From Patescibacteria group bacterium (GTDB lineage: Bacteria; Patescibacteriota; Patescibacteriia; UBA9570), in NCBI GenBank assembly GCA_024277435.1, contig JAJRVJ010000025.1, forward strand, positions 1 to 60,383: a DNA stretch of 60,383 nt. Direction: 5' to 3'. Of the stretch, positions 7,782 to 60,383 are shown in pieces (positions within the stretch are counted from its first letter, which is position 1; each line of letters starts with the position of its first letter). A program made the position numbers and the translations under genes. The notes under the pieces are model-generated. The model did not search any database. It was given only the letters and a program-made list of their open reading frames with translations, and had not been told where the DNA came from.

Positions 7782-9884
7782 ATGCATGTACTACTCGCCA
7801 CCTTAAATCAAAAGCAACGCGAAGCGGTAGAGGCCACGGATGGTCCTGTTTTAATTTTGGCAGGCGCTGGTTCTGGAAAAACCAAAACATTAATTCACCG
7901 TATAGCCTATATTATTGCGCAAGGTAAAGCCAAACCATGGAATATTATGGCGGTAACCTTTACTAATAAAGCCGCGCAAGAAATGAAGGCGCGTTTAAAA
8001 AATCTATTAGGTGAACAACTTACGCATCCACCAGTAGTAGGAACGTTTCATTCATTTTGTGTACAAATTCTCCGCCGCGAAATTGAAGTGCTGGACTATG
8101 ATAAAAATTTTGTTATTTATGATAGCGCCGATACGGATCGCCTGGTAAAGAAAGTGATGAAAGATCAAGGTATTAATACTAAAACAGTAGCCCATGGCGC
8201 TATTAAAGCGTTAATTTCTAAAGCCAAGAACGAACTACAAGACCCCACCATGATGCTTGGTGAAGCTGGGGAATTTATGGAAAAAACTGCTGGCCAAGTA
8301 TATGTACAATACCAACGCGAACTCCAAGCCAGTAATGCCGTTGATTTTGATGACCTCATTATGTTAACAGTGCGTTTATTTAAAGAACATAATGAAGTAC
8401 TTCAAAAATATCAAAGTGCTTTCACCTATTTATTTGTAGATGAGTATCAGGATACAAATAATGCACAATATGAACTCATTCACCGGTTAGCTGAAAAAAA
8501 TAAAAACATTTGTGTAGTGGGAGATGATTTTCAATCAATCTACTCATGGCGCGGTGCCAACCTACAAAACATTTTAAATTTTGAAGATGATTATCCAAAA
8601 GCTAAAGTAATTTTACTTGAGCAAAACTATCGTTCTACACAAAGAATACTAGATGCCGCAAATGAAATTATTAAATACAATACACAACAGAAAGATAAAA
8701 AATTATGGACAGAAAATGAGCGTGGCCAAAAAATTACTATCATTGAAGTACTCAATGAACAACTTGAAGGCGAAGCGATTATTCGTGAAATATTCGACCC
8801 ACTCGCTGGCACTGGAGAACTTGTTTCATTAGAAAATGAAGATACCGGGGAAGAAAATGAGCTCGAATATATTGATGAAACTACTATAAACGAAGACGAA
8901 GCTCCATCTCTGTTAGATAAAATAATGGCTAGCCAAACCTTCACACAATATAAAAAAGATAAAGGCTTAGAACAAAAAATACGTGAACAAATTAGCACGA
9001 TAGATCTTGCCAAATACGTAATTCTCTATCGTACAAACGCTCAATCCCGTGCTCTGGAAGAAGCTTTTCTAAAATACAATGTTCCTTATCGTATCATCGG
9101 CGTAATTAAATTTTACGAACGCAAAGAAGTAAAAGATATTGTTGCTTATGCTCGCAGTCTAGTAAATCCAGTAGACTGGGTAAGTTTAGAACGCATTATT
9201 AATGTACCGGCTAGATCCATTGGCCCTACCAGTTGGGCAAAAATTGAAGCAGCTTGCCGAGAGCGTGAAGTTTCCTTTCTTGATATTGAAGAAAATGAAC
9301 TTCCCAAACTCCGCACCCAACAACATACCGCATTCATGACATTTCAAGATACAATGAAAAAACTCCATAAATCGATTGCAGATAAATCCCCTTCAGAAAT
9401 TCTTAGCTTGATTGTAAGTAAAACAAAGTACAAATCATTGTTCGATCCAAAATTACCAGAAGATCAACGACGGTTAGAAAATCTTGAAGAACTAAAATCA
9501 GTTACTAAGAAGTTTGATAATCTAAAAGGTGAAGAAGGATTAACCTCATTCTTAGAGGAAGTAAGTTTAATTTCAGATCAAGACAGCATTGATGAATCTG
9601 TAAGTGCTGTAAATCTTATGACTATGCATGCCGCTAAAGGCTTAGAGTTTGATTACGTATTTATTACAGGTATGGAAGAGGGTCTCTTCCCTCATTCGCG
9701 TAGCTTATTTCAAGCAGAAGAAATGGAAGAAGAACGACGTTTATGTTACGTAGCGCTTACTCGTGCCAAAAAAGGTGCTTACTTATTATATGCCAATCAA
9801 CGCACTGTATACGGCAATACCCAAATTAGTGCGCCCTCACGGTTTATTGAAGATATTCCTGAAGATCTTGTCGAACGACGGTAG
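7782..9884 (+). CDS. pcrA: ATP-dependent DNA helicase PcrA/UvrD (SF1)
   Basis: Walker A AGAGSGKT, motif II VDEYQDTN, QNYRST, and TMHAAKGLEF...LCYVALTRA. Confidence 0.9.
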   Translation: MHVLLATLNQKQREAVEATDGPVLILAGAGSGKTKTLIHRIAYIIAQGKAKPWNIMAVTFTNKAAQEMKARLKNLLGEQLTHPPVVGTFHSFCVQILRREIEVLDYDKNFVIYDSADTDRLVKKVMKDQGINTKTVAHGAIKALISKAKNELQDPTMMLGEAGEFMEKTAGQVYVQYQRELQASNAVDFDDLIMLTVRLFKEHNEVLQKYQSAFTYLFVDEYQDTNNAQYELIHRLAEKNKNICVVGDDFQSIYSWRGANLQNILNFEDDYPKAKVILLEQNYRSTQRILDAANEIIKYNTQQKDKKLWTENERGQKITIIEVLNEQLEGEAIIREIFDPLAGTGELVSLENEDTGEENELEYIDETTINEDEAPSLLDKIMASQTFTQYKKDKGLEQKIREQISTIDLAKYVILYRTNAQSRALEEAFLKYNVPYRIIGVIKFYERKEVKDIVAYARSLVNPVDWVSLERIINVPARSIGPTSWAKIEAACREREVSFLDIEENELPKLRTQQHTAFMTFQDTMKKLHKSIADKSPSEILSLIVSKTKYKSLFDPKLPEDQRRLENLEELKSVTKKFDNLKGEEGLTSFLEEVSLISDQDSIDESVSAVNLMTMHAAKGLEFDYVFITGMEEGLFPHSRSLFQAEEMEEERRLCYVALTRAKKGAYLLYANQRTVYGNTQISAPSRFIEDIPEDLVERR

Positions 9885-9904
9885 CTTATGTATACTAATG
9901 TTCT

Positions 9905-10855
9905 ATGTTGGAGGACAAAAAATCAAAGGCGAAAAAACCAGCTAAAAAGAAAGTAACGAAGTCATCAACTTCAAAGTCTTCTGGTGCCAAAAAAGCTACA
10001 GCAAAAAAACCTGTCACTAAAAAAGCAGTTGTTAAAAAAGCTGTTAAGAAAAAAACTACTGTAAAAAAGAGTGCTAAAAAAGCTACAGCAAAAAAACCTG
10101 TAACAAAACGTAAAGCAGCTACTAAAAAAACAGCAACCAAAAAGAAAGTACCTGTAACTGTAAGGTCCGGTGAGGCAACACCTACTACTAGTTTCGAAAT
10201 GCCGGATATTATTTTGCCGGAAGTTATTGAAGTACAAGCCGCTCCAGTTCCAGAGCATGCCGTACTTTCTAAACCTGAGAAACAACATATTTCTTTCTTT
10301 CAAAAAGTTGTGAGCATTACTGCTGTAATCATCGTAGGATTAATAGCAATGTATGCGGTTACCGAATATTATCAAGTAACAATATCTAACATTGAAAGTA
10401 ACTACGCATCTTCTCCTGTGGTAATAGATCCAATTAAATGGAGTGACCGCACCATGCAAACCGACGCCGGACGCATTACCATAACCTTCCCAGAATTTTG
10501 GAAAGTACAATCGCTTGGTAATGATCACATTCGTTTTGTAAGTAATGATAATGAGGCCACTACTACAATACAAATTCATAAATCTAAAAGTCCAAGCGTA
10601 CTACACTGGCTACAGCAACAAAGCCTAAAGTATACTGACTTTGAAGTAATTGAATTATCTCCGGCACTCAAGAAATTTGAACCTGCCGTATTTGCTACCG
10701 CCATTGATGATCAAAATAATCACTATGCGGTATTTTATGTACAATCTGGAGAATATGTTATTGAATCAACTATTCAGTATTTATTAGATTCAACAAATAC
10801 AAAAAGGAATGTCGTTGGCTATACTAACTTAATTGAAAATCTTAAAATCGAATAA
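9905..10855 (+). CDS. Membrane protein with a Lys/Ala-rich histone-H1-like N-terminal tail
   Basis: 316 aa. The first roughly 85 aa are KKxxAKK repeats, followed by a TM helix (VVSITAVIIVGLIAMYAV) and a C-terminal domain of about 170 aa. Confidence 0.65.
   Translation: MLEDKKSKAKKPAKKKVTKSSTSKSSGAKKATAKKPVTKKAVVKKAVKKKTTVKKSAKKATAKKPVTKRKAATKKTATKKKVPVTVRSGEATPTTSFEMPDIILPEVIEVQAAPVPEHAVLSKPEKQHISFFQKVVSITAVIIVGLIAMYAVTEYYQVTISNIESNYASSPVVIDPIKWSDRTMQTDAGRITITFPEFWKVQSLGNDHIRFVSNDNEATTTIQIHKSKSPSVLHWLQQQSLKYTDFEVIELSPALKKFEPAVFATAIDDQNNHYAVFYVQSGEYVIESTIQYLLDSTNTKRNVVGYTNLIENLKIE
9989..10101 (+). repeat. Direct repeat inside the Lys-rich coding region
   Basis: The 26-nt string aaaaaagctacagcaaaaaaacctgt occurs at 9989-10014 and again at 10076-10101. 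The offset is 87 nt, or 29 codons, and each copy encodes KKATAKKPVT. Confidence 0.85.
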
Positions 10856-10888
10856 TATATTTTACACATTAGTTGCTATAAAAATAAT

Positions 10889-10914
10889 AAAGCCCGGGCA
10901 TGTGTCCCGGGTTT
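10889..10914 (+). terminator. Rho-independent terminator of the 9905..10855 gene
   Basis: aaagcccggg-catgtgt-cccgggttt: a 6-9 bp GC stem followed by Ts. Confidence 0.7.
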
Positions 10915-10960
10915 CTCTATAACTCATACAAATTTAGCTTCCACATAAAATGGAGGACGA

Positions 10961-10988
10961 GGAGGTGGTACATTTGTATCCCACCTCC
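10961..10988 (-). terminator. Terminator-like hairpin immediately after the island-1 ORF
   Basis: ggaggtgg (10961-10968) pairs with ccacctcc (10981-10988) and abuts the TAG stop. The downstream U-run is weak. Confidence 0.4.
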
Positions 10989-11566
10989 TACTTGTCGCTC
11001 CCGGCTTCCGGGTACTCCCTCGTCAGAACCAGCGGATCGCGCTGAGACGAAGTGCGCCACAGAAGGAAGAGCCGGCGATCTCGGCGAAGATTGTAGTCCT
11101 CGTCGATGATGTCGGTCAGCACCGTGCCACTCGGCAGTGCCACATAGATGTAGATGGCATCCGTTGCCGGAACCACCTTCACGATGTGGGGAACCAGTGG
11201 TTCTCCACGCTCGCTTTTTGGAACATGCGAGGGCTCGCCGAACTCGGCGTAAACCTTGCGGCTTACATCGAACACGTCGACCGGGATCACATCCGCAGCA
11301 CCTACACCAGTGGCATAGGGCACGATGATTACCAGGTTGGCTTGGCGAACCAAAGGCGAAGTGTTGGGTTCGAAACGAACGTCTCCAAACATGCGGGGTT
11401 CCTCCTGCAGTGGGGGTACCAGCTGCAGATGGGGCTTCCGCTGCTGTTCAGGTTCGCTCCGAACATCTTCCTGAGAAACCAGAGCTTGGCTCACAGGGTC
11501 TGCCTCACCTCTGAACAGGTGAGTCAGTGGCTGGATAACCAGCGTTTGAAACGCGGCTTTCAGCAT
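10988..11566 (-). CDS. Hypothetical protein encoded by G+C-rich island 1 (foreign composition)
   Basis: 192-aa ORF with an ATG start preceded by gtGAGGTGattc. The line 11041-11100 has 35/60 G+C by hand count, against 15/60 for the host line 10741-10800. I recognised no family. Several overlapping shadow ORFs are present, as is typical of high G+C. Confidence 0.6.
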   Translation of the reverse strand: MLKAAFQTLVIQPLTHLFRGEADPVSQALVSQEDVRSEPEQQRKPHLQLVPPLQEEPRMFGDVRFEPNTSPLVRQANLVIIVPYATGVGAADVIPVDVFDVSRKVYAEFGEPSHVPKSERGEPLVPHIVKVVPATDAIYIYVALPSGTVLTDIIDEDYNLRRDRRLFLLWRTSSQRDPLVLTREYPEAGSDK

Positions 11567-11700
11567 GAATCACCTCACAAGGTGTGGTAAATTGTACGGC
11601 ACGACTAGGGAATAGGGCTTTATGTCGCCCGCGACCCAGTAGAACCAGCACGAAAGACCCCTCAGAGGGGCCCCTCGTATCCCCCAACGGGGGACGAATA

Positions 11701-11729
11701 ACCATACCACTGTATTTAACAAATGTCAA
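11701..11729 (-). promoter_or_regulatory. Sigma70-type promoter for the island-1 gene
   Basis: On the minus strand: TTGACA (11724-11729), a 17-nt spacer, then TATGGT (11701-11706). A leader of about 130 nt follows. Confidence 0.5.
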
Positions 11730-11789
11730 TGGCTAATTGACCATGAATACTACTTTGAAATAAGCACAAAAAACTGGTACACTTCTTGC

Positions 11790-13061
11790 ATGCCAACAAT
11801 AATTACACAAAATCCTACTCTACCCACTGAAGATAAAAAAATAGCACCAAATCCAGGCGCTGGTCCTAAAATCGTTCTCGACCAAACTCCTGAAGAGCCT
11901 ACAACATCTATGCAGCCACATCCAACAACGTCAGATCTTAAACCAGTTCCAAAAGCTACCGCACCAGTAACACAACCAGAGCCAAAACCTTTTCCGGAAA
12001 ATAAACCCCATGTTGAAGCTAATCTTGAAGAACTTGATAAGTTACAAGCTGAACTCACTGCTAAACTTGCACACAAGCATAGTGAAGAAACTAAACTACT
12101 TGAACAAGTCCAAGAACTCATTAAACAAACAGGACAAATTGAAGGTAGTGAAGCTGAACTTCACAAGCAACTGCAAGAATTACAAGACATGCGTAAAAAT
12201 ATTGCTGCGCAACCAGAAAAAGCAGCAGAGCATATACAAAACAGCGCATTCACCACTTTAGTGAAAGATATCGAACCTACTCCAGCTGAACCAGCCGCTC
12301 CAGCAGCAACCAAACCTGATGCACTCAAGCCTGTTGAAATGCAGGTTGATAAAAAAATCCTCAACGCATTGCGACAAACGTTTAGTAATACCGATCCCGC
12401 GATTGCTGCCACTCTCACAGCCAATGCAACAGTTGAACAATCGGACGATGGCGGTGTACTTATTACAGGTAATAATAATCAAGTACATTTTTCTCCAGAG
12501 GATCTTAGGCAGGCAAATATCACTGCTATAGATGTAGCGATGCTTCCAAAAACAACTTTAAAACCTAACGCTATTCCTGAACCTATGCCTGCTCCGGAAA
12601 TTGCGCCAGTACAGTCTGAACCCACTCCTACGCCTAGACCAGTTACTGCAGGCACTATGAATGCTCCTGCGGCAGCGCTATTAGAAAAAATACTTCCTCA
12701 CTTAACATCAGAACAACAAGCTGCGCTCGTGAATCCATCAAGCCTGCAACGATCTGCCGATGGTAATGGAATAGTAATTACCACTCAAACAGGAGACGTA
12801 CATTTAAGTGATGCGGATTTAATTCGCGCTAGTATAACATCAGTAGATCTTCAAAATATTTCTACTAGCACACAACCCGTAGCTACCACCACGGAACCCA
12901 CACCTGCCGAACAACCAGCTCAAACTCAACCAGTGGCTACTGTAGAGCCTACGCCAGCTGTACAAACTACCCCCGAACAACCAGCTCCTGTAGCTGCACC
13001 TGTACAACCAACAGGACCACAACCTACACCTGCCCAACCTGGTCCACCGGCTATTGGGTAG
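11790..13061 (+). CDS. Pro/Thr/Ala-rich low-complexity protein with a duplicated globular module
   Basis: 423 aa. Two related segments are present: ...VEQSDDGGVLITGNNNQVHFSPEDLRQANITAIDV... and ...LQRSADGNGIVITTQTGDVHLSDADLIRASITSVDL.... They are separated and flanked by PxP-rich linkers. Confidence 0.6.
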   Translation: MPTIITQNPTLPTEDKKIAPNPGAGPKIVLDQTPEEPTTSMQPHPTTSDLKPVPKATAPVTQPEPKPFPENKPHVEANLEELDKLQAELTAKLAHKHSEETKLLEQVQELIKQTGQIEGSEAELHKQLQELQDMRKNIAAQPEKAAEHIQNSAFTTLVKDIEPTPAEPAAPAATKPDALKPVEMQVDKKILNALRQTFSNTDPAIAATLTANATVEQSDDGGVLITGNNNQVHFSPEDLRQANITAIDVAMLPKTTLKPNAIPEPMPAPEIAPVQSEPTPTPRPVTAGTMNAPAAALLEKILPHLTSEQQAALVNPSSLQRSADGNGIVITTQTGDVHLSDADLIRASITSVDLQNISTSTQPVATTTEPTPAEQPAQTQPVATVEPTPAVQTTPEQPAPVAAPVQPTGPQPTPAQPGPPAIG

Positions 13062-13080
13062 CACACGCCATGGCGTGCAC

Positions 13081-14385
13081 CTACTGCATTAAACTTTTAC
13101 GATGTAGTTTCCGATAATATGATATCGCAAATCGATGCGCCTCATCGCGCATCCGTTGCACTAAAAATAATCCCTGACTACCGGTTGGTTGGGTAATGGG
13201 CATAGATTCTCCTGGAAGATATAATTCTTCTCGTTTTTTCGCTAATGATACAACTGCAACCTGTTTATCTTTCCAAAAATCTTCTACCGCACTCAACTGC
13301 CCCTTACCTCCATCAATAATCGCCAAATCTGGCAATGGCCAATCGCGCTTTAACCTACGCCTCACAACTTCTTGCAAACTTTTATAATCATCATTCTGTT
13401 TGATATTCTTTATTTTAAAACGACGATATTCACCCTTATCTGGTAAACCGTTAATAAACACCACCATCGAACCAACGGTATGCGATCCTTGTCCATGAGA
13501 GATGTCATAAATCTCTACCCGATGCGGCGGCTTCGCCAAACCAAGCACCTGGGATAATTCCTGTAAACCCATTTGTGGATCAATCGCCTTTAAAGCATAT
13601 TGCTCGGTAAGATATTGCTGTGGTGTTTTTTGTAACGTTTGCAATTGCTCAATCGATTTTAATTGATCACGAATCCGAGCAGCTTTCTCATACAATTGCT
13701 GTTCAGCAGCTTTCGCCATTTCAGATTCCAAAGCTATTACTAACTGTTTGGTGTCACCTTCAAAAAAATCAATGGCTCGATACACCATTTTTTGATAATC
13801 CTCTACAGTGATTTCATTTATACACGGTGCCTTGCAGCGTCCTATATAATATTCCAAGCAAGCTTTCTTCGGTAACTTACTACATGTGCGAAACGGAAAA
13901 ATACTATGCAATAATTGTAAGACCACCCGCGTGCTACGGGCAAATGGATATGGCCCATAATATACTCCGGCTTTTTGTAAGTTTGGCCTACGTACAGCCA
14001 ATACGCGCGGATACTCTTCATGTGTTACGTGAATATATAAAAAACTTTTATCATCTTTCGATAATATATTAAAACGTGGTTGATAATCCTTAATCAGTTG
14101 ATCTTCCAATAATAGAGCGTCTGCCTCTGTACCTGTTTCAATCCAATCTATCGTTTCAATTTGGCCAACCATAATCTTTTTTCGCTCTGAGAGGGTGGTA
14201 GAGACGCGTTGCAACGCGTCTCTACCACCAACAAAATAGGACCGTACACGGTTCTTCAATACCTTAGCCTTCCCCACATACAATACATTCCCTTGTCTAT
14301 TTTTAAATAGGTACACACCCGGGCTATTAGGTAGTTCTTGTAATCGTTTTTGAATAGACTTATCCATGGTGCATGCATTGTACAT
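13081..14385 (-). CDS. uvrC: Excinuclease ABC subunit C (short form, no C-terminal HhH domain)
   Basis: GIY-YIG motif GVYLFKNRQGNVLYVGKAKVLKNRVRSYF, a UVR-like helix and an Endo-V-like domain (IYDISHGQG). A more likely start is MDKSIQ at 14367. Confidence 0.85.
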   Translation of the reverse strand: MYNACTMDKSIQKRLQELPNSPGVYLFKNRQGNVLYVGKAKVLKNRVRSYFVGGRDALQRVSTTLSERKKIMVGQIETIDWIETGTEADALLLEDQLIKDYQPRFNILSKDDKSFLYIHVTHEEYPRVLAVRRPNLQKAGVYYGPYPFARSTRVVLQLLHSIFPFRTCSKLPKKACLEYYIGRCKAPCINEITVEDYQKMVYRAIDFFEGDTKQLVIALESEMAKAAEQQLYEKAARIRDQLKSIEQLQTLQKTPQQYLTEQYALKAIDPQMGLQELSQVLGLAKPPHRVEIYDISHGQGSHTVGSMVVFINGLPDKGEYRRFKIKNIKQNDDYKSLQEVVRRRLKRDWPLPDLAIIDGGKGQLSAVEDFWKDKQVAVVSLAKKREELYLPGESMPITQPTGSQGLFLVQRMRDEAHRFAISYYRKLHRKSLMQ

Positions 14386-14391
14386 GGTTAT

Positions 14392-14430
14392 ATCATGTAG
14401 GGACAGGATAATACCCTATCCCTACATGAT
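14392..14430. promoter_or_regulatory. 12-bp perfect inverted repeat in the uvrC/uvrA divergent control region
   Basis: ATCATGTAGGGA (14392-14403), N15, TCCCTACATGAT (14419-14430). It lies 14 nt upstream of the uvrA -35 element. Confidence 0.45.
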
Positions 14431-14444
14431 CGCTACCCACACGC

Positions 14445-14473
14445 TTGACCATATGTAAAATCAGCAGTATACT
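14445..14473 (+). promoter_or_regulatory. Sigma70-type promoter of uvrA
   Basis: TTGACC (14445-14450), a 17-nt spacer, then TATACT (14468-14473). Confidence 0.5.
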
Positions 14474-14509
14474 ACTGTAGTTCAAAATCTTAACTCCCTA
14501 TATACATTC

Positions 14510-15712
14510 ATGGATCCAGTAATCTCAATTAAAGGAGCTCGCGTACATAACCTAAAAAACATCTCACTGGACTTACCACGCAACAAGCTTGTGGTTATTA
14601 CTGGCCTATCTGGTTCTGGAAAATCCTCATTAGCGTTCGATACTATTTATGCTGAAGGACAACGTCGTTACGTAGAAAGTCTATCAGCCTACGCTCGACA
14701 ATTTTTAGGGTTAATGGACAAACCTGACGTAGACCGCATCGAGGGTTTATCGCCAGCTATTTCCATTGATCAAAAAACCACCTCCCATAATCCACGATCA
14801 ACTGTTGGTACAGTAACAGAAATTTATGATTACCTTCGATTACTCTATGCTCGCATTGGTACACCGCATTGCCCTAATGATGGTGAAGTTGTACAGAAAC
14901 AAACTATAGGGCAAATTCTTAACAAGATTCTAAAAATTCCCGCTAACTCTAAAATTCTTGTTATCGCACCAATTATTCGTGATAAAAAAGGTGAGCATAA
15001 ATCATTGATAGAAGAAGCTCGTAAATCTGGCTATGTGCGCATTCGCATCGACGGCGCGATGATGCCTATAGAAGAGGCTGAAGATAAAACTCTTGATAAA
15101 AAGAAGAAACATTCTATCGATATAGTAATTGATCGTTTAACCATTTCTCCAAAAATTGATAAAGAACGATTAACCGAATCAATTGAAACTGCTTTAAACT
15201 TAGCTAACGGATTATTACTTATTCATGACTCCGAGGAAGAAAAGGATTTACTATTTTCAGAACATTTCTCTTGTCCAAAGTGTCAGTTTAACTTAGAGGA
15301 TCTAGAGCCGCGGAACTTTTCTTTTAACAGCCCACACGGTGCTTGTGATGATTGTACGGGCCTAGGAACAAAACTAGAAGTAGATCCTGATTTAGTTATT
15401 CCAAATAAAAAATTATCAATCGCAGAAGGCGCCATTCGTCCATGGTCACGCACATCATCGAATCAAACTTGGATGATGCGTATTCTTGAAGCTGTAGCGC
15501 AAGCGAATGGCTTTTCAACTAATGACCCCATAAAAGACCTATCAAAAAAATCTTTGAAAGTTATTCTACATGGAACGGGTAAACAATCCTACGATGTAAA
15601 TAGTCCTTTTGCCACCGGTAAGGTTAAGGCATTTATGACGGAGTATGAAGGTGTTATTCCAAATCTTGAACGCCGCTATAAAGAAACCGAGTCCGAATAC
15701 ATGCGCTCTTAA
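14510..15712 (+). CDS. uvrA: Excinuclease ABC subunit A, N-terminal 400 aa, ending at an in-frame TAA
   Basis: [35 protein letters not shown], a zinc module CPKC...CDDC, and ...[19 protein letters not shown]. Confidence 0.9.
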
Positions 15713-20555: not shown

Positions 20556-20627
20556 CGCGGGGTGGAGCAGTGGCAGCTCGGGTGGCTCATAACCATCAGG
20601 TCGAGGGTTCGAATCCCTCCCCCGCAA
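20556..20627 (+). tRNA. tRNA-Met (anticodon CAT), probably the initiator
   Basis: A cloverleaf was built by hand: acceptor cgcgggg/ccccgca with a C1-A72 mismatch, D arm gagc-agtggca-gctc, anticodon arm ggtgg-ctCATaa-ccatc, and T arm gaggg-ttcgaat-ccctc. No CCA is encoded. Confidence 0.85.
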
Positions 20628-57179: not shown

Positions 57180-58457
57180 TTATTGCTTAGGACTAGCTTC
57201 ACGTAATGCCATATCCATCCATAATATAGTTGATTGATGTACTGGCTTTGGGAAAGTGATACGAAGCGTATCTTGTTTTCCACCATGTGCAGATTCTACT
57301 TCTGTACCATCTTCAAGCGTTAGTGTATCGAGTACTAGTTCATACTCTTCACCCGGCATCATTACATGTACTGTCTCACCTTTGTAGATTTCATTTTTTA
57401 CAAGCACATCAGCCGTGTGCTCATCAATAATATTTGTAATAGTTCCAACAAATTTCTCCGTAGATTTTTCTGTACGTTTTTGTAAACTCTGTTTTGGAGA
57501 TCCAAAGAAGAAACCAGTATCAAAATCCCGAGAAGAACGTCGCAACAACTGTGCCTTTAATTCTGCTAGTCGATCTTTTTTATTTGAATCATCACTACCT
57601 ATTAAATCAATCGCCTCACGATAGGCTTTTACAATTTGTGCCGCATAAAATTCTCCGCGACCACGGCCTTCAATTTTGAATGAAACAATTCCTGCGTCAG
57701 CTAATTCATCAAGCCTATCTACTAGGCACATATCGTTAGCATTAAATATGTACGTGCCATTTTCATCCTCTTCTACAGTAATTATTTCATCCGGTCTCTG
57801 TGATTCTACAAATTGCATTTCTTTTGGCTTCACCTCTTTATAATGCCACCGGCAATTATTGGCGCACGATCCATGATTGGCTTTGTGTGAATCTGTCATA
57901 TAGGAAGATAACATACAGCGTCCAGAATATGCCATGCACTGAGCACCATGTACGAATGTTTCAATTTCAATATCTGGAAACTGATCATACATTTCACCAA
58001 TTTCTCGTAAATTTAATTCTCGTGCCAAAATCACTCGCTCGGCTCCTTGATCAGCCCAAAACTTCACGCCCAATGAATTAGTAATACTGGCCTGTGTAGA
58101 AATATGAATTGGTAGCGATGGCGCTACTTCTTTAATAAGTGAAAATACTCCGGCGTCGGAAACAATCAATGCATCCGGTTTAATTTCTTCAAGTTTTTTT
58201 AACGCTCTAGTAATTACCTTAATGTGATGATTGTGCGCGAACACATTTACTGTAACGTACACTTTCTTTCCACGCTCATGCGCATACTCCACCATTTCCT
58301 GAAGCTGTTCATAGGAAAAGTTCCCTTTATGTTGGCGTAAAGCAAATATATTCGTTCCACAAAAAATCGCATCAGCTCCGTAATCAATAGCAAGCTTACC
58401 CTTACGAAGGGTTCCGGCTGGTGCTAATAATTCTGGTTTATCGAGTGTATGAGCCAT
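57180..58457 (-). CDS. Peptidase U32 family protein
   Basis: MAHTLDKPELLAPAGTLRKGKLAIDYGADAIFCG... is a typical U32 N-terminus. The track ORF (to 58748) is extended artefactually into the G+C-rich island. Confidence 0.85.
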   Translation of the reverse strand: MAHTLDKPELLAPAGTLRKGKLAIDYGADAIFCGTNIFALRQHKGNFSYEQLQEMVEYAHERGKKVYVTVNVFAHNHHIKVITRALKKLEEIKPDALIVSDAGVFSLIKEVAPSLPIHISTQASITNSLGVKFWADQGAERVILARELNLREIGEMYDQFPDIEIETFVHGAQCMAYSGRCMLSSYMTDSHKANHGSCANNCRWHYKEVKPKEMQFVESQRPDEIITVEEDENGTYIFNANDMCLVDRLDELADAGIVSFKIEGRGRGEFYAAQIVKAYREAIDLIGSDDSNKKDRLAELKAQLLRRSSRDFDTGFFFGSPKQSLQKRTEKSTEKFVGTITNIIDEHTADVLVKNEIYKGETVHVMMPGEEYELVLDTLTLEDGTEVESAHGGKQDTLRITFPKPVHQSTILWMDMALREASPKQ

Positions 58458-58552
58458 AGGGTTGATAGAGTACATAAATATTGTTAAAGGCGCAAGACAA
58501 ATTATAGAAAGATCGAGCGGGACAGCACTCAATCCTCCATGATTGAAAATGA

Positions 58553-58592
58553 ACTTCATGCCTGTCCCGAACTCCGCGGAGTTACATGAAGT
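58553..58592 (-). terminator. Nested hairpin terminator after the island-3 ORF
   Basis: Outer stem acttcatg (58553-58560) pairs with catgaagt (58585-58592). The inner element is the perfect palindrome aactccgcggagtt (58570-58583). A T-rich tract follows on the minus strand. Confidence 0.5.
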
Positions 58593-58596
58593 ATGG

Positions 58597-59220
58597 CTAG
58601 CGGTACCAGCCGTTGGCGGTAAGGACAACCATGACCAGCATGGCGAAGACCTCAGCGTAGACGTCCACGGTCCGTTCCGTCCGTTCCTGCCATGCCTCCA
58701 ACGGCGGCAGGTGAATGAAGCCGGCCTTGCGCCGATCATTGATATCACGCCACGTCAGCAAGTGATAGTGCGCGGCATTGCAGAGGAAGCGACCGTCGTA
58801 GCCGTTGAGCGCCAGCCCCGGACTACCGCTGGGCAGCGCGGCCCGCTTGATAAGTGCACTGAGATCGCCCCAGCCAGCTTCCCAATGAAGGCCTGAGAGC
58901 AGAACCTCAGGGCCATTCGGAAGCATGTCCTGAGGAGGATCCTGCTTCTGCACGTCCTTGCCGCTAGCAAGACGGACGGCCATCTGTTCGATCGACATGA
59001 AGTGATCGAAGCCTTCGCCGAGGCCGATCACTCTGTCGTGGTTATTCAGCCAGCCCTCATCGAAGATCTCCTTGAGCGCAGCCCAGTTCGTGGGCACCTC
59101 AATGACGCTAGCAACATGACCAGAGTCCTTAATGTACTCACCAAGCTTGCGCGCGACAGAGATACTGCCATTCGTGCTTCGACCTCCGAATGGACCGAAG
59201 CAAAGGATTGCGATTTTCAA
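58597..59220 (-). CDS. Peptidase C15 (pyroglutamyl-peptidase I)-like protein encoded by G+C-rich island 3
   Basis: 207 aa: MKIAILCFGPFGG, VIGLGEGFDHFMSIEQMAV (Glu), DGRFLCNAAHY (Cys) and KAGFIHLPP (His). The start is TTG, preceded by AAGGAGGTGggat. The line 58801-58860 has 42/60 G+C by hand count. Confidence 0.7.
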   Translation of the reverse strand: MKIAILCFGPFGGRSTNGSISVARKLGEYIKDSGHVASVIEVPTNWAALKEIFDEGWLNNHDRVIGLGEGFDHFMSIEQMAVRLASGKDVQKQDPPQDMLPNGPEVLLSGLHWEAGWGDLSALIKRAALPSGSPGLALNGYDGRFLCNAAHYHLLTWRDINDRRKAGFIHLPPLEAWQERTERTVDVYAEVFAMLVMVVLTANGWYR

Positions 59221-59250
59221 ATCCCACCTCCTTGGGTTTGTGGGACCATT

Positions 59251-59279
59251 AGATTATGTGAAACATCATAATAAATCAA
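59251..59279 (-). promoter_or_regulatory. Sigma70-type promoter of the island-3 gene
   Basis: On the minus strand: TTGATT (59274-59279), a 17-nt spacer, then TAATCT (59251-59256). Confidence 0.45.
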
Positions 59280-59335
59280 GTCTAAACGCAATCTAGAATT
59301 GCTATATTAGGCCAATATTAGACACAAAAAAGGAC

Positions 59336-59590
59336 TTATCCACTAATAACTACTAACCCAATAATAACCCTAGGCGTAAACTGAGAGGCCATTTTTTATT
59401 ATAAAAAATGGCCCAATTATCCACTCTTACCCCATATTAATAAAAGTATAAAAGAGAGATAATTAAGTGTTCCTTTCGAGGGATAATAAAATAATTAATT
59501 ATGCACTAAATAGCTATGAACAAATAAACGGTTCAGGAGGACAATTACTGCACGCACATTTCGATTTAAAATATTTCTCACATATCCACT
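59336..59590 (+). promoter_or_regulatory. Cluster of DnaA-box-like 9-mers, with a fourth site at 60374-60382
   Basis: TTATCCACT at 59336-59344, TTATCCACT at 59417-59425, ATATCCACT at 59582-59590 and TAATCCACA at 60374-60382. All are on the plus strand. The consensus is TTATCCACA. Confidence 0.35.
59387..59413. repeat. Perfect 11-bp-arm hairpin/palindrome
   Basis: ggccatttttt-attat-aaaaaatggcc. Confidence 0.8.
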
Positions 59591-59747
59591 ACATATATCT
59601 TAGCAAGAATGCATATAGGTGAGATAATCAATTCGTACAGGACATTCTACATCTGATACTTCGAATTGATGAAGGCCTAATATATATTATTCAGCCTCTC
59701 TTGATTCCATTTGCCAGGTATACGAATATACTTCAAAGTTGTGACTA

Positions 59748-60258
59748 GGAATCGCTGAGGCCCCATATCACTATTCGGCTCATCACGATTCCTACTCAGA
59801 GCTAATAAGTAACAAGTTCAGTTTTCAGACTGAGCATTGGTGAAGACCCAACTCATCCTTTCGTCTCTCCCGATGCTCGCTCTGAGTGCTGAATGAATTA
59901 GCTGAGCGAGGTACACACTATATCCCTCCGACTCCTAATTCTCCACTCATAAGCTCTATTCCAATTTGGTTAGTAGGCTCACTGATAATAACGCTCGTCG
60001 TATTATCAGTAAGCCACTCCCAATTTCATTCACAGCTTCTGGTTTCTGATAGTTACAGACGTGCCCTCATTATAAATACGCACGATCTTGCTATCAGTAC
60101 TCAGCAGCGGTGCGTGTGGAACAGCCAGGCCATATATATACAACCTGCGCCTGTCCCACACACCCTCGCCGCTGATAGTTCTGAGTTGCGATATCCATGT
60201 CTATATGATTTGGGTCGCCGCTCAGAACTGTCAGCTGCGGCTGAGACCGTTTCATTTT
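59748..60258. other. Non-coding block dense in helices (candidate structured RNA or DNA structural element)
   Basis: Hand-paired stems are 59748-54/59786-92 (7 bp), 59876-82/59904-10 (7 bp), 59981-90/60001-10 (10 bp) and 60046-52/60091-97 (7 bp). A composite hairpin spans 60099-60186 (6+6+6+5 bp). An alternative 9-bp stem pairs 60177-85 with 60221-29, and a 5-bp stem spans 60231-44, followed by tttcatttt. Confidence 0.3.
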
Positions 60259-60383
60259 GGGCGCGTAAAAAGTCGTTTTCTCTGCTATGATTAGCTTCAA
60301 ATACATTGTTTAACCTGTTAAGAAGCTAATTATGATAAAAAAAACGAAACAATCCTTATTGTCCAAAGTGCGCTAATCCACAA

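What the first reader, a model, noticed from the sequence alone, without database searches (positions are those of the whole stretch)
10940..11735. Island 1: an orphan 192-aa protein with a strong RBS and its own promoter, antisense to its neighbours
ORF 10988..11566 lies on the minus strand between two plus-strand host genes. It has a strong RBS (gtGAGGTGattcATG) and a consensus-like promoter (TTGACA-17-TATGGT). A hairpin abuts its stop codon. The N-terminal roughly 60 aa are Pro/Gln/Glu-rich and look disordered. The remainder looks like a compact beta-rich domain (LVIIVPYATGVGAADVIPVDVFDV...AIYIYVALPSGTVLTDII). I cannot assign a family. Several long shadow ORFs overlap it, so the coding frame should also be confirmed.
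Basis: partly seen in the sequence, partly recalled or inferred. Interest (0 to 1): 0.6.

Follow-up and report, generated by a model that had tools for sequence, protein, structure and literature searches.

The report
Conserved GC-rich orphan gene cassette
The 192-residue orphan gene is real, but it is not a one-off foreign insert: related ultra-small bacteria keep an equally GC-rich gene with unusually folded mRNA, behind the same promoter and leader, in the same slot.

Summary
ORF 10988..11566 (-) lies in a 56-60% GC patch of a 40% GC, 1.33-Mb genome. It has a TTGACA-17-TATGGT promoter with an extended -10 element, a GAGGTG ribosome-binding site and a stem-loop at the stop codon. GC content shows strong codon periodicity (p 9e-10). 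No sequence relative turned up in 5.8 billion proteins, in 1.84 billion representatives, or in the Pfam, PHROG, PADLOC, Rfam, phage or viral-contig searches.

The "island from a donor" reading does not hold. Five other genomes from two other genera of the family carry a GC-rich antisense ORF in the same slot, between the same two neighbour genes. They share the promoter, the leader motif CCCTATTCC, an SD and a stop-codon stem-loop whose arms covary. A sixth genome keeps a short copy with no ORF, and two have an empty slot.

The coding parts are almost unrecognisably diverged (best E 0.03-0.07, colinear). GC3 stays at 0.60-0.64 against 0.23-0.42 in the neighbour gene, and the mRNAs are predicted to be unusually structured (z -5.9, -4.1, -4.4). 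Between two close relatives the whole cassette is 91-97% identical while its flanks are 71-90% identical (dS 0.15 against 0.97).

The modelled ortholog has a disordered N-terminus and an Ig-like beta-sandwich. Function is unknown. This scan has already described the same pattern at other GC-rich patches of this genome.

The parts
11701..11729 (-). Sigma-70-type promoter: -35 TTGACA, 17-nt spacer, TG-extended -10 TATGGT. Predicted transcription start is near 11694.
   Evidence: The -35 element and the extended -10 align with those of G005 and G006, and G009 has TTGACA...TATAGT.
11567..11694 (-). GC-rich 5' leader of about 128 nt, with two strong 5' hairpins, a small hairpin GGGC/GCCC that carries the conserved motif, and a helix pairing the SD and part of the AUG.
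   Evidence: -59.9 kcal/mol, z -3.27. In the minimum-energy fold, GGUGA and GUG of the SD region pair with UUACC and CAC. No Rfam family matched.
11609..11617 (-). Invariant leader motif CCCTATTCC, 35-65 nt upstream of the start codon in every filled genome.
   Evidence: G003 has GCCCTATTTC. In G000 only this one of the 7 genome-wide hits lies at a GC-rich patch, and 7 hits are expected by chance. Beyond family f1 the extended pattern occurs at about the control rate.
11571..11576 (-). Shine-Dalgarno sequence GAGGTG, 4 nt before the ATG.
   Evidence: The 16S rRNA 3' end reads CACCTCCTTTCT.
10988..11566 (-). Coding sequence of 192 aa: a Pro/Gln/Glu-rich, disordered N-terminal part of about 70 aa, then a probable beta-rich domain. 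The mRNA is unusually structured.
   Evidence: coding; sense-strand z -5.94; antisense z -2.52; z -4.9 against synonymous-codon shuffles.
10952..10990 (-). 3' stem-loop that encloses the stop codon (GGAGGTGG, 12-nt loop, CCACCTCC), followed by the C/U-rich tail TCGTCCTCC.
   Evidence: Equivalent stems with different but complementary arms occur in G003, G005, G006, G010 and G011.
10883..10911 (-). Intrinsic-terminator-like hairpin CCCGGG...CCCGGG followed by a T-run. It probably ends the transcript.

Best explanation
The region 10883..11729 (-) is one self-contained transcription unit running from promoter to terminator. It is this genome's allele of a cassette restricted to one family of CPR-type ultra-small bacteria. 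SHOWN: (1) It is protein-coding in the minus frame. (2) The cassette always sits antisense between the genes for the histone-tail membrane protein (9905..10855) and the Pro-rich coiled-coil protein (11790..13061). Five other genomes from two other genera carry it there, a sixth from another genus has a decayed copy, and two have an empty slot. (3) The promoter, the leader motif CCCTATTCC, the SD and the stem-loop around the stop codon are shared, while the ORFs are nearly unrecognisable to one another. (4) All alleles keep GC3 near 0.6 in hosts whose neighbour gene has GC3 of 0.23-0.42. (5) The three alleles folded with dinucleotide-shuffle controls (G000, G005, G006) are predicted to fold far better than those shuffles; against synonymous-codon shuffles the G010 allele is weaker (z -2.0). 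(6) Between G010 and G011 the whole cassette is much less diverged than its flanks. INFERRED: The ORFs are hyper-diverged orthologs. They encode a small, probably cytoplasmic protein with a disordered N-terminus and an Ig-like beta-sandwich, most likely a fast-evolving binding module. The GC richness is held by selection on the RNA (stable stems throughout the mRNA), not by recent import. Translation is gated by the leader helix that hides the SD and AUG. Alleles are probably exchanged occasionally between related lineages as whole cassettes.
For: Coding evidence. In every filled genome the ORF runs from an SD just after the conserved motif to the conserved stem-loop. G006 and G010 products align over 122 residues with only 6 gap positions (E 3e-7). 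For G010/G011, differences by codon position are 10/3/17 and omega is 0.34. Same slot: synteny pcrA, KK316, cassette, P423, uvrC; empty in G001 (10-nt gap) and G002; ORF-less copy in G003. Shared non-coding parts: (leader E 5e-10 and hairpin E 5e-7 between G006 and G010). Faint colinear protein similarity: hhalign of the 7-sequence profile against ours gives E 0.071 over 90 columns; ours against G009 gives E 0.029; G009 against the profile gives E 0.024 on the same strand motif. The neighbour KK316 is itself only about 30% identical between G000 and the others, so loss of detectable similarity is expected. Persistent GC. Structured mRNA: against controls 108, 111, 112. Low cassette divergence: dS 0.145 against 0.967, with sharp edges in the identity profile. 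Fold: ortholog model pLDDT 70, seven strands; best match is an Ig-like domain at Z 9.6. Independent assemblies share the element, so it is not an assembly chimera.
Against: Homology of the G000 ORF to the other alleles is not statistically established: Smith-Waterman shuffle p is 0.24-0.6 and hhalign probability is below 1%. The model of our own protein is unusable (pLDDT 43), and the language-model recognition score is low (1812). The cassette is less diverged than its flanks between G010 and G011 but more diverged than its flanks between G006 and G010. One constant constraint does not explain that, and it points to lateral allele exchange or episodic change. No consensus leader structure emerged from six sequences. 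Some other GC-rich patches also show z near -3.8, so the structure signal is not unique to this locus. There are no expression or protein data.
Confidence: 0.6

Rival explanations
1. The slot holds exchangeable, unrelated cargo. The promoter/leader and the 3' stem-loop are fixed 'bookends'. Different, unrelated GC-rich ORFs are dropped between them, or whole cassettes are swapped from an external GC-rich pool, by a recombination mechanism not yet identified. On this view the G000 ORF shares no ancestry with the other alleles.
For: There is no significant protein similarity between G000, G005 and the genus g2 alleles. At least three very different alleles plus an empty site occur inside one genus. 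The G010/G011 cassette is a sharply bounded block of 91-97% identity inside flanks of 71-90%, with dS 6.7 times lower than the neighbour's, as expected if cassettes move between lineages. GC content does not track the host's.
Against: Weak matches are colinear and recur on the same strand motif in three independent comparisons. The neighbour gene is equally near the twilight zone. The high-identity block in G010/G011 includes the bookends themselves. No integrase, attC-like core or flanking repeat was seen at the cassette edges (and direct reading). No copy of the leader motif sits at any other GC-rich patch of G000. No external pool was found in viral contigs, phages or 5.8 billion proteins.
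Confidence: 0.22
2. A structured non-coding RNA gene whose GC richness produces an incidental long ORF. On this view the RNA is the only product.
For: Sense-strand z is -5.9 against -2.5 for the antisense strand. Orthologs are also structured. The non-coding ends are the best conserved parts. G003 keeps a copy with no ORF. Synonymous sites are constrained. The language model barely recognises the product.
Against: Codon periodicity is strong (p 9e-10) and absent from the leader. An SD plus start codon lies at the same place in all six filled genomes (the G009 ORF is cut by its contig end, so its stop is unseen), and in the other five the ORF fills the unit up to the stem-loop, including a 322-aa ORF in G005. 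Indels between G006 and G010 keep the frame. Position 2 changes least between G010 and G011. No Rfam family matched. A dual-function RNA remains possible and is compatible with the best explanation.
Confidence: 0.08
3. A recent horizontal acquisition from a GC-rich donor, specific to this genome.
For: There is a sharp 20-point GC jump, GC3 of 0.64 against 0.25-0.35 in host genes, and SD use that host genes mostly lack. The ORF is not found by sequence in 60 relatives. The genome has 53 such patches, and at least one other, the Peptidase_C15-like gene, was not found in the 12 family genomes searched.
Against: Homologous promoter, leader motif and 3' stem-loop occur at the same slot and orientation in four genera. 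No donor-like homologue exists anywhere. There are no mobility genes, tRNA or direct repeats at the edges.
Confidence: 0.05
4. An assembly chimera or contaminating read-through inside a metagenome-assembled contig.
For: Many GC-rich patches lie next to contig ends.
Against: The patch is flanked by host DNA on both sides within one 60-kb contig. The same element is present in independently assembled relatives. The contig-end patches are explained by a repeated IS-like element with target-site duplications.
Confidence: 0.01

Closest known systems
Phage 'morons' (autonomous promoter-ORF-terminator units of deviant base composition inserted between genes; concept recalled from my own knowledge of the Hendrix/Juhala work)
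   Same: A single ORF with its own sigma-70 promoter and its own terminator, base composition unlike its neighbours, inserted between two genes that are adjacent in relatives.
   Different: It lies in a cellular chromosome between housekeeping-type genes, not in a prophage. It occupies the same slot across genera. Its composition stays deviant over long divergence. It has a conserved leader and stop-codon stem-loop.
Integron gene cassettes / CALIN arrays
   Same: Small single-ORF units, often orphans. They have a structured imperfect inverted repeat at the 3' end, variable content at a fixed place, and composition unlike the host.
   Different: The cassette has its own promoter, whereas integron cassettes are normally promoterless. 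It is one cassette and not an array. No GTTRRRY core was seen at the edges on direct reading, no integrase lies nearby, and the 3' stem encloses the stop codon.
Horizontal-transfer hotspots (variable accessory genes between conserved core genes)
   Same: Presence/absence and allele diversity at one intergenic position flanked by conserved genes. The cassette genealogy appears decoupled from the flanks.
   Different: The variable units share homologous regulatory ends and probably ancestry. The slot is only about 0.4-1.3 kb with one gene. There are no mobility genes.
Taxonomically restricted (orphan) fast-evolving genes
   Same: No homologue outside a narrow clade, a disordered N-terminus, a simple beta domain, and elevated dN/dS relative to the neighbour.
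   Different: Orphan genes normally carry the host's composition. This one keeps GC3 near 0.6 in genomes with GC3 of 0.23-0.42 and has strongly constrained synonymous sites and an unusually folded mRNA.

Membership tests
Recently acquired genomic island | Deviant base composition relative to the host | tested here: met
   56-60% GC against 40%. GC3 is 0.64 against 0.25-0.35.
Recently acquired genomic island | Absent from the same site in relatives, with content traceable to a donor | tested here: not met
   Homologous cassette ends occur at the same slot in G003, G005, G006, G009, G010 and G011. No donor homologue was found.
Recently acquired genomic island | Mobility signatures such as an integrase, a tRNA target or flanking direct repeats | tested here: not met
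   The only tRNA is at 20556. No repeat family flanks the patch. The unit contains only the one ORF.
Phage moron | Own promoter and own terminator around one ORF of deviant composition | tested here: met
Phage moron | Located inside a phage or prophage genome | tested here: not met
   The neighbours are pcrA, a membrane protein, a coiled-coil protein and uvrC/uvrA. There were no PHROG hits and no phage or viral match.
Integron gene cassette | Promoterless ORF followed by an attC site with conserved core sites | tested here: not met
   The unit has its own promoter. The 3' stem-loop encloses the stop codon and has SD-like and anti-SD-like arms. No GTTRRRY core was seen on direct reading of 10880..10990.
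Integron gene cassette | Adjacent IntI-type integrase and attI site | not tested
   The ORFs I listed at 7782..15712 and 57180..60306 include nothing that looks like an integrase; the rest of the window and genome were not searched for IntI.
Ig-like beta-sandwich domain proteins | Seven-stranded two-sheet sandwich of about 100 residues | tested here: inconclusive
   The G006 ortholog model (pLDDT 70) has seven strands. Its best matches are Ig-like domains at Z 9.6, 8.9 and 8.5 (rmsd 3.1-6.0 over 95-107 residues), with generic rows below. The model of our own protein is unusable, and its homology to the ortholog is unproven.
Known cis-regulatory RNA leaders (Rfam riboswitches, thermometers, leaders) | Match to a curated covariance model | tested here: not met
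   No match at gathering score. At E up to 10 only chance-level hits appeared outside the leader.

The most novel reading that the evidence does not exclude
These CPR genomes carry a class of autonomous promoter-to-hairpin cassettes in which the RNA itself is under selection: a stable, GC-rich fold throughout a translated mRNA, with conserved leader and stop-codon stem. The cassettes are passed between lineages as whole units into fixed slots by a mechanism that needs no recognisable integrase. On this reading, persistent GC richness in an AT-rich genome marks an undescribed kind of RNA-constrained, laterally exchanged gene cassette and not foreign origin.
Probability: 0.3. Interest if true: 0.8.

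Novelty: new variant of a known kind. Interest (0 to 1): 0.62.

Why it matters
Compositional islands are routinely read as recent horizontal transfer. Here a GC-rich, SD-using orphan gene keeps its foreign look at one chromosomal slot across genera. Its synonymous sites change about seven times more slowly than the neighbour's, and its mRNA folds as well as a structured RNA. If selection on the RNA (or cassette-wise exchange) explains this, it gives a testable reason for the dozens of similar patches in this and related CPR genomes. It also cautions against GC-based island calling in such lineages, and it points to a pool of fast-evolving small beta-sandwich proteins that may act in symbiont-host or phage contacts.

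Tried and rejected
- Sequence searches on the 192-aa product found nothing usable: Pfam; PHROGs (best E 0.27); PADLOC; 5.8-billion-protein word search (self only); full phmmer over 1.84 billion representatives (self plus one low-complexity hit to residues 18-64, E 1.5e-4); 60 relatives in six frames; genome contigs; viral contigs; phage records by blastn; ESM Atlas (no usable hit).
- Pfam, PHROGs and PADLOC on the G005, G006 and G010 alleles also gave nothing.
- Single-sequence AlphaFold2 of our protein gave pLDDT 43, so no fold search was attempted on it.
- Foldseek on the ortholog model gave no match at E <= 0.001.
- I looked for a shared protein family among the 53 GC-rich patches of the genome. 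All-against-all blastp and blastn found only the IS-like repeat at contig ends.
- I asked whether the leader motif or an SD/anti-SD-type 3' hairpin marks all patches. The motif is unique to this locus. Similar hairpins occur at only about four other patch edges.
- RNAalifold on six leaders gave no meaningful consensus structure.
- The 18-codon mini-ORF inside the 3' hairpin (SD GGAGGTGG, 7 nt, ATG) has no counterpart in relatives and is treated as chance.

Full report
**Observation**

The window is contig C16 of a 1.33-Mb, 34-contig genome that is 97% complete and 40.2% GC. Positions 10921..11700 are 56-60% GC. The minus-strand ORF 10988..11566 encodes 192 aa.

- **Ribosome-binding site:** GAGGTG lies 4 nt before the ATG.
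- **Promoter:** TTGACA, a 17-nt spacer and TATGGT, with a TG extended -10 element.
- **3' structures:** The stem-loop GGAGGTGG / CCACCTCC starts inside the TAG stop codon. A GC-stem terminator with a T-run follows at 10911..10883.
- **Periodicity:** GC by codon position is 0.70/0.39/0.64 (chi-square 41.6, p 9e-10). The leader has no such periodicity.
- **Chance ORF:** An ORF this long arises in 0.9% of dinucleotide shuffles of the patch.
- **Shadow frame:** The antiparallel frame on the + strand shares the codon register and is open for 213 codons. Its first start codon (GTG at 11186, leaving 134 aa) comes only about 80 codons in, I saw no SD before it, and its product is rich in R, H, W and Q.

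The minus frame is therefore the gene.

**It is an orphan by sequence**

No family or relative was found in Pfam, PHROGs or PADLOC. The same was true of 5.8 billion proteins and an exhaustive phmmer run over 1.84 billion representatives. Six-frame searches of 60 relatives, 185,000 species genomes, viral contigs and phage records also found nothing. Rfam found nothing in the region.

**It is not a private island**

The neighbourhood pcrA, KK316 (9905..10855), P423 (11790..13061), uvrC is syntenic across the family. Between the KK316 and P423 homologues the slot has three states:

| State of the slot | Genomes |
|---|---|
| Empty (10-nt gap; about 2 to at most ~70 nt) | G001, G002 |
| About 360 bp, no ORF | G003 |
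| GC-rich ORF antisense to both neighbours | G000 (192 aa), G005 (322-383 aa), G006 (140 aa), G010 (146 aa), G011 (144 aa), G009 (cut by contig end) |

Reading these intergenic stretches side by side shows four shared features:
- a shared TTGACA promoter with an extended -10 element;
- an invariant CCCTATTCC 35-65 nt before the start codon;
- an SD;
- a long stem at the stop codon followed by a C/U-rich tail.

The arms of that stem differ between genomes but stay complementary: GGAGGTGG/CCACCTCC, GAGGTAGG/CCTACCTC, GAGGCAGG/CCTGCCTC, GAGAGGTA/TACCTCTC and GGGAGTAG/CTACTCCC. Each stem was predicted independently.

G003 keeps the promoter, a one-mismatch version of the motif and the stem, but no ORF. 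In G000 the motif is found at this GC-rich patch only; 7 hits genome-wide equal the chance expectation. In 401 genomes of the class, an extended pattern exceeded its control only within the family. Between G006 and G010 the leader (E 5e-10) and the 3' stem (E 5e-7) are the only parts alignable as DNA.

**Are the ORFs related?**

- G006 and G010 products are homologous: E 3e-7, 30% identity over 122 residues, with only 6 gap positions.
- The database holds six proteins of this type, all from close relatives.
- Our protein against them is not significant. Shuffle p is 0.24-0.6. hhalign gives E 0.071, but over 90 colinear columns covering the whole domain.
- The partial G009 allele matches ours at E 0.029 and matches the g2 profile at E 0.024, both on the same strand motif A-x-L-h-h-h-h-P-[YF].
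- The neighbour KK316 is itself only about 30% identical between G000 and the others, and 49% between G006 and G010, where the cassette ORF is 31.5% identical. Divergence beyond detection is what vertical descent predicts.

I rate shared ancestry as likely but unproven.

**Persistent oddities**

GC3 of the cassette ORF is 0.60-0.64 in all five complete alleles. The adjacent KK316 gene has GC3 of 0.23-0.42.

The coding mRNA is predicted to be unusually structured.

| Sequence | z against dinucleotide shuffles |
|---|---|
| Ours, sense strand | -5.94 (0 of 100 shuffles as stable) |
| Ours, antisense strand | -2.52 |
| G006 allele | -4.08 |
| G005 allele | -4.39 |
| Second GC patch of the window | -2.50 |
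| Host KK316 | -1.15 |

Synonymous-codon shuffles give the same order: ours -4.9, G006 -3.9, host genes -0.8 to -1.2. Other GC-rich patches range from -1.4 to -3.8, so the signal is not unique to this locus. Part of the 'disordered' N-terminus (codons 34-67) is encoded by a hairpin of about 45 bp.

Between the close pair G010 and G011:

| Gene | dS | dN | omega |
|---|---|---|---|
| Cassette ORF | 0.145 | 0.049 | 0.34 |
| Neighbour KK316 | 0.967 | 0.118 | 0.12 |

A sliding comparison shows the whole cassette, promoter, leader and stem included, at 91-97% identity, with sharp edges against flanks at 71-90%.

Either nearly every cassette position is constrained, or this cassette pair is younger than the genomes that carry it. 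The cassette is more diverged than its flanks between G006 and G010, so I infer both RNA-level constraint and occasional lateral exchange of alleles.

**Product**

Single-sequence AlphaFold2 of our protein failed (pLDDT 43). The G006 ortholog, modelled with seven sequences, gave pLDDT 70. It has a disordered N-terminal 31 residues (pLDDT below 50), and its first strand starts at residue 44, opening a seven-strand all-beta domain. Its best structural matches are generic Ig-like sandwiches: the GH2 Ig-like domain at Z 9.6, then S-layer, CopC and immunoglobulin domains at Z 7-9. I see no signal peptide or membrane segment on direct reading. The function remains unknown. I commit to a fast-evolving binding module whose synthesis is gated by a leader helix that pairs the SD and part of the AUG.

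**Genome context**

- The genome has 53 GC-rich patches totalling about 50 kb.
- Of ten of their ORFs tested, six have no Pfam family.
- Host ORFs rarely have an SD (2-7% of 955), while GC-rich ORFs often do (34-37% of 38). GC-rich upstream regions would contain more such G-rich motifs by composition alone, so part of this contrast may be compositional. The 16S rRNA still carries CACCTCCTTTCT.
- Earlier notes of this scan describe the same pattern at other patches of this genome: conserved slot, persistent GC, shared leader and structured mRNA. One of them names the lineage Kerfeldbacteria. I reached the slot reading before seeing those notes. I tested the slot, the structure and the SD contrast here, but I did not verify the taxon name.
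- A literature search found no paper describing this pattern.

**Verdict**

The 'foreign island with a donor' reading is not supported. The feature is a lineage-restricted, persistently GC-rich, RNA-structured orphan gene cassette. It is a new variant relative to morons, integron cassettes and transfer hotspots.

Noticed in passing
Genome contig ends (C1, C4, C7, C8, C9, C12, C19, C33 starts; C11, C15, C17, C22, C23, C29 ends); not in the window: An AT-rich IS-like repeat with about 23-bp imperfect terminal inverted repeats (GAGACCGTTTCATTTTGGGCGCG ... CGCGCCAGATATGGAACGGTGAC) breaks the assembly at 14 contig ends. All but one of the 14 ends abut GC-rich patch DNA (C19 is the exception). Nine-bp target duplications link C17/C7 (TCTTCATCG), C22/C12 (GCCCACCGT) and C29/C33 (AGAGGGTCC). 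It therefore seems to insert, or to be tolerated, mainly in the GC-rich patches.
   Followed up: partly
window 58597-59220 (-): A second GC-rich patch (58501-59200) encodes a 207-aa Peptidase_C15-like (pyroglutamyl peptidase) protein behind the SD GGAGGTGG and a TTG start (Pfam E 8.6e-8). It was not found in the 12 family relatives searched. Its mRNA z is -2.5.
   Followed up: partly
window 11755-11792 (+): A promoter-like site, TTGAAA-17-TACACT with TG, ends 6 nt before the ATG of the Pro-rich protein gene (11790). That gene may therefore be transcribed as a leaderless mRNA, back to back with the cassette promoter. In relatives with an empty slot the gene follows KK316 within 2-10 nt.
   Followed up: no
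L028:2409-2780 (-) in relative G010; equivalent gap in window 9885-9904: G010 carries another GC-rich (61%) ORF of 123 aa, with an N-terminus resembling a twin-arginine/lipobox signal, between the pcrA and KK316 homologues. In G000 that gap is only 20 nt. This is a second variable slot next to the first.
   Followed up: no
Whole genome: Only 2-7% of 955 host-composition ORFs have an SD-like motif before the first ATG, against 34-37% of 38 GC-rich ORFs, which may partly reflect GC-rich upstream composition. The 16S rRNA 3' end still has the anti-SD CACCTCCTTTCT.
   Followed up: partly
window 10931-10987 (-): Inside the 3' stem-loop, the SD-like arm GGAGGTGG is followed 7 nt later by an ATG that opens an 18-codon hydrophobic mini-ORF (MYHLLVLHFMWKLNLYEL). 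It is not conserved in relatives.
   Followed up: partly
window 11366-11464 (-), codons 34-67 of the ORF: A long imperfect hairpin of about 45 bp lies in the part of the CDS that encodes the Pro/Gln/Glu-rich 'disordered' segment. That peptide stretch may be shaped by RNA pairing more than by protein function.
   Followed up: no
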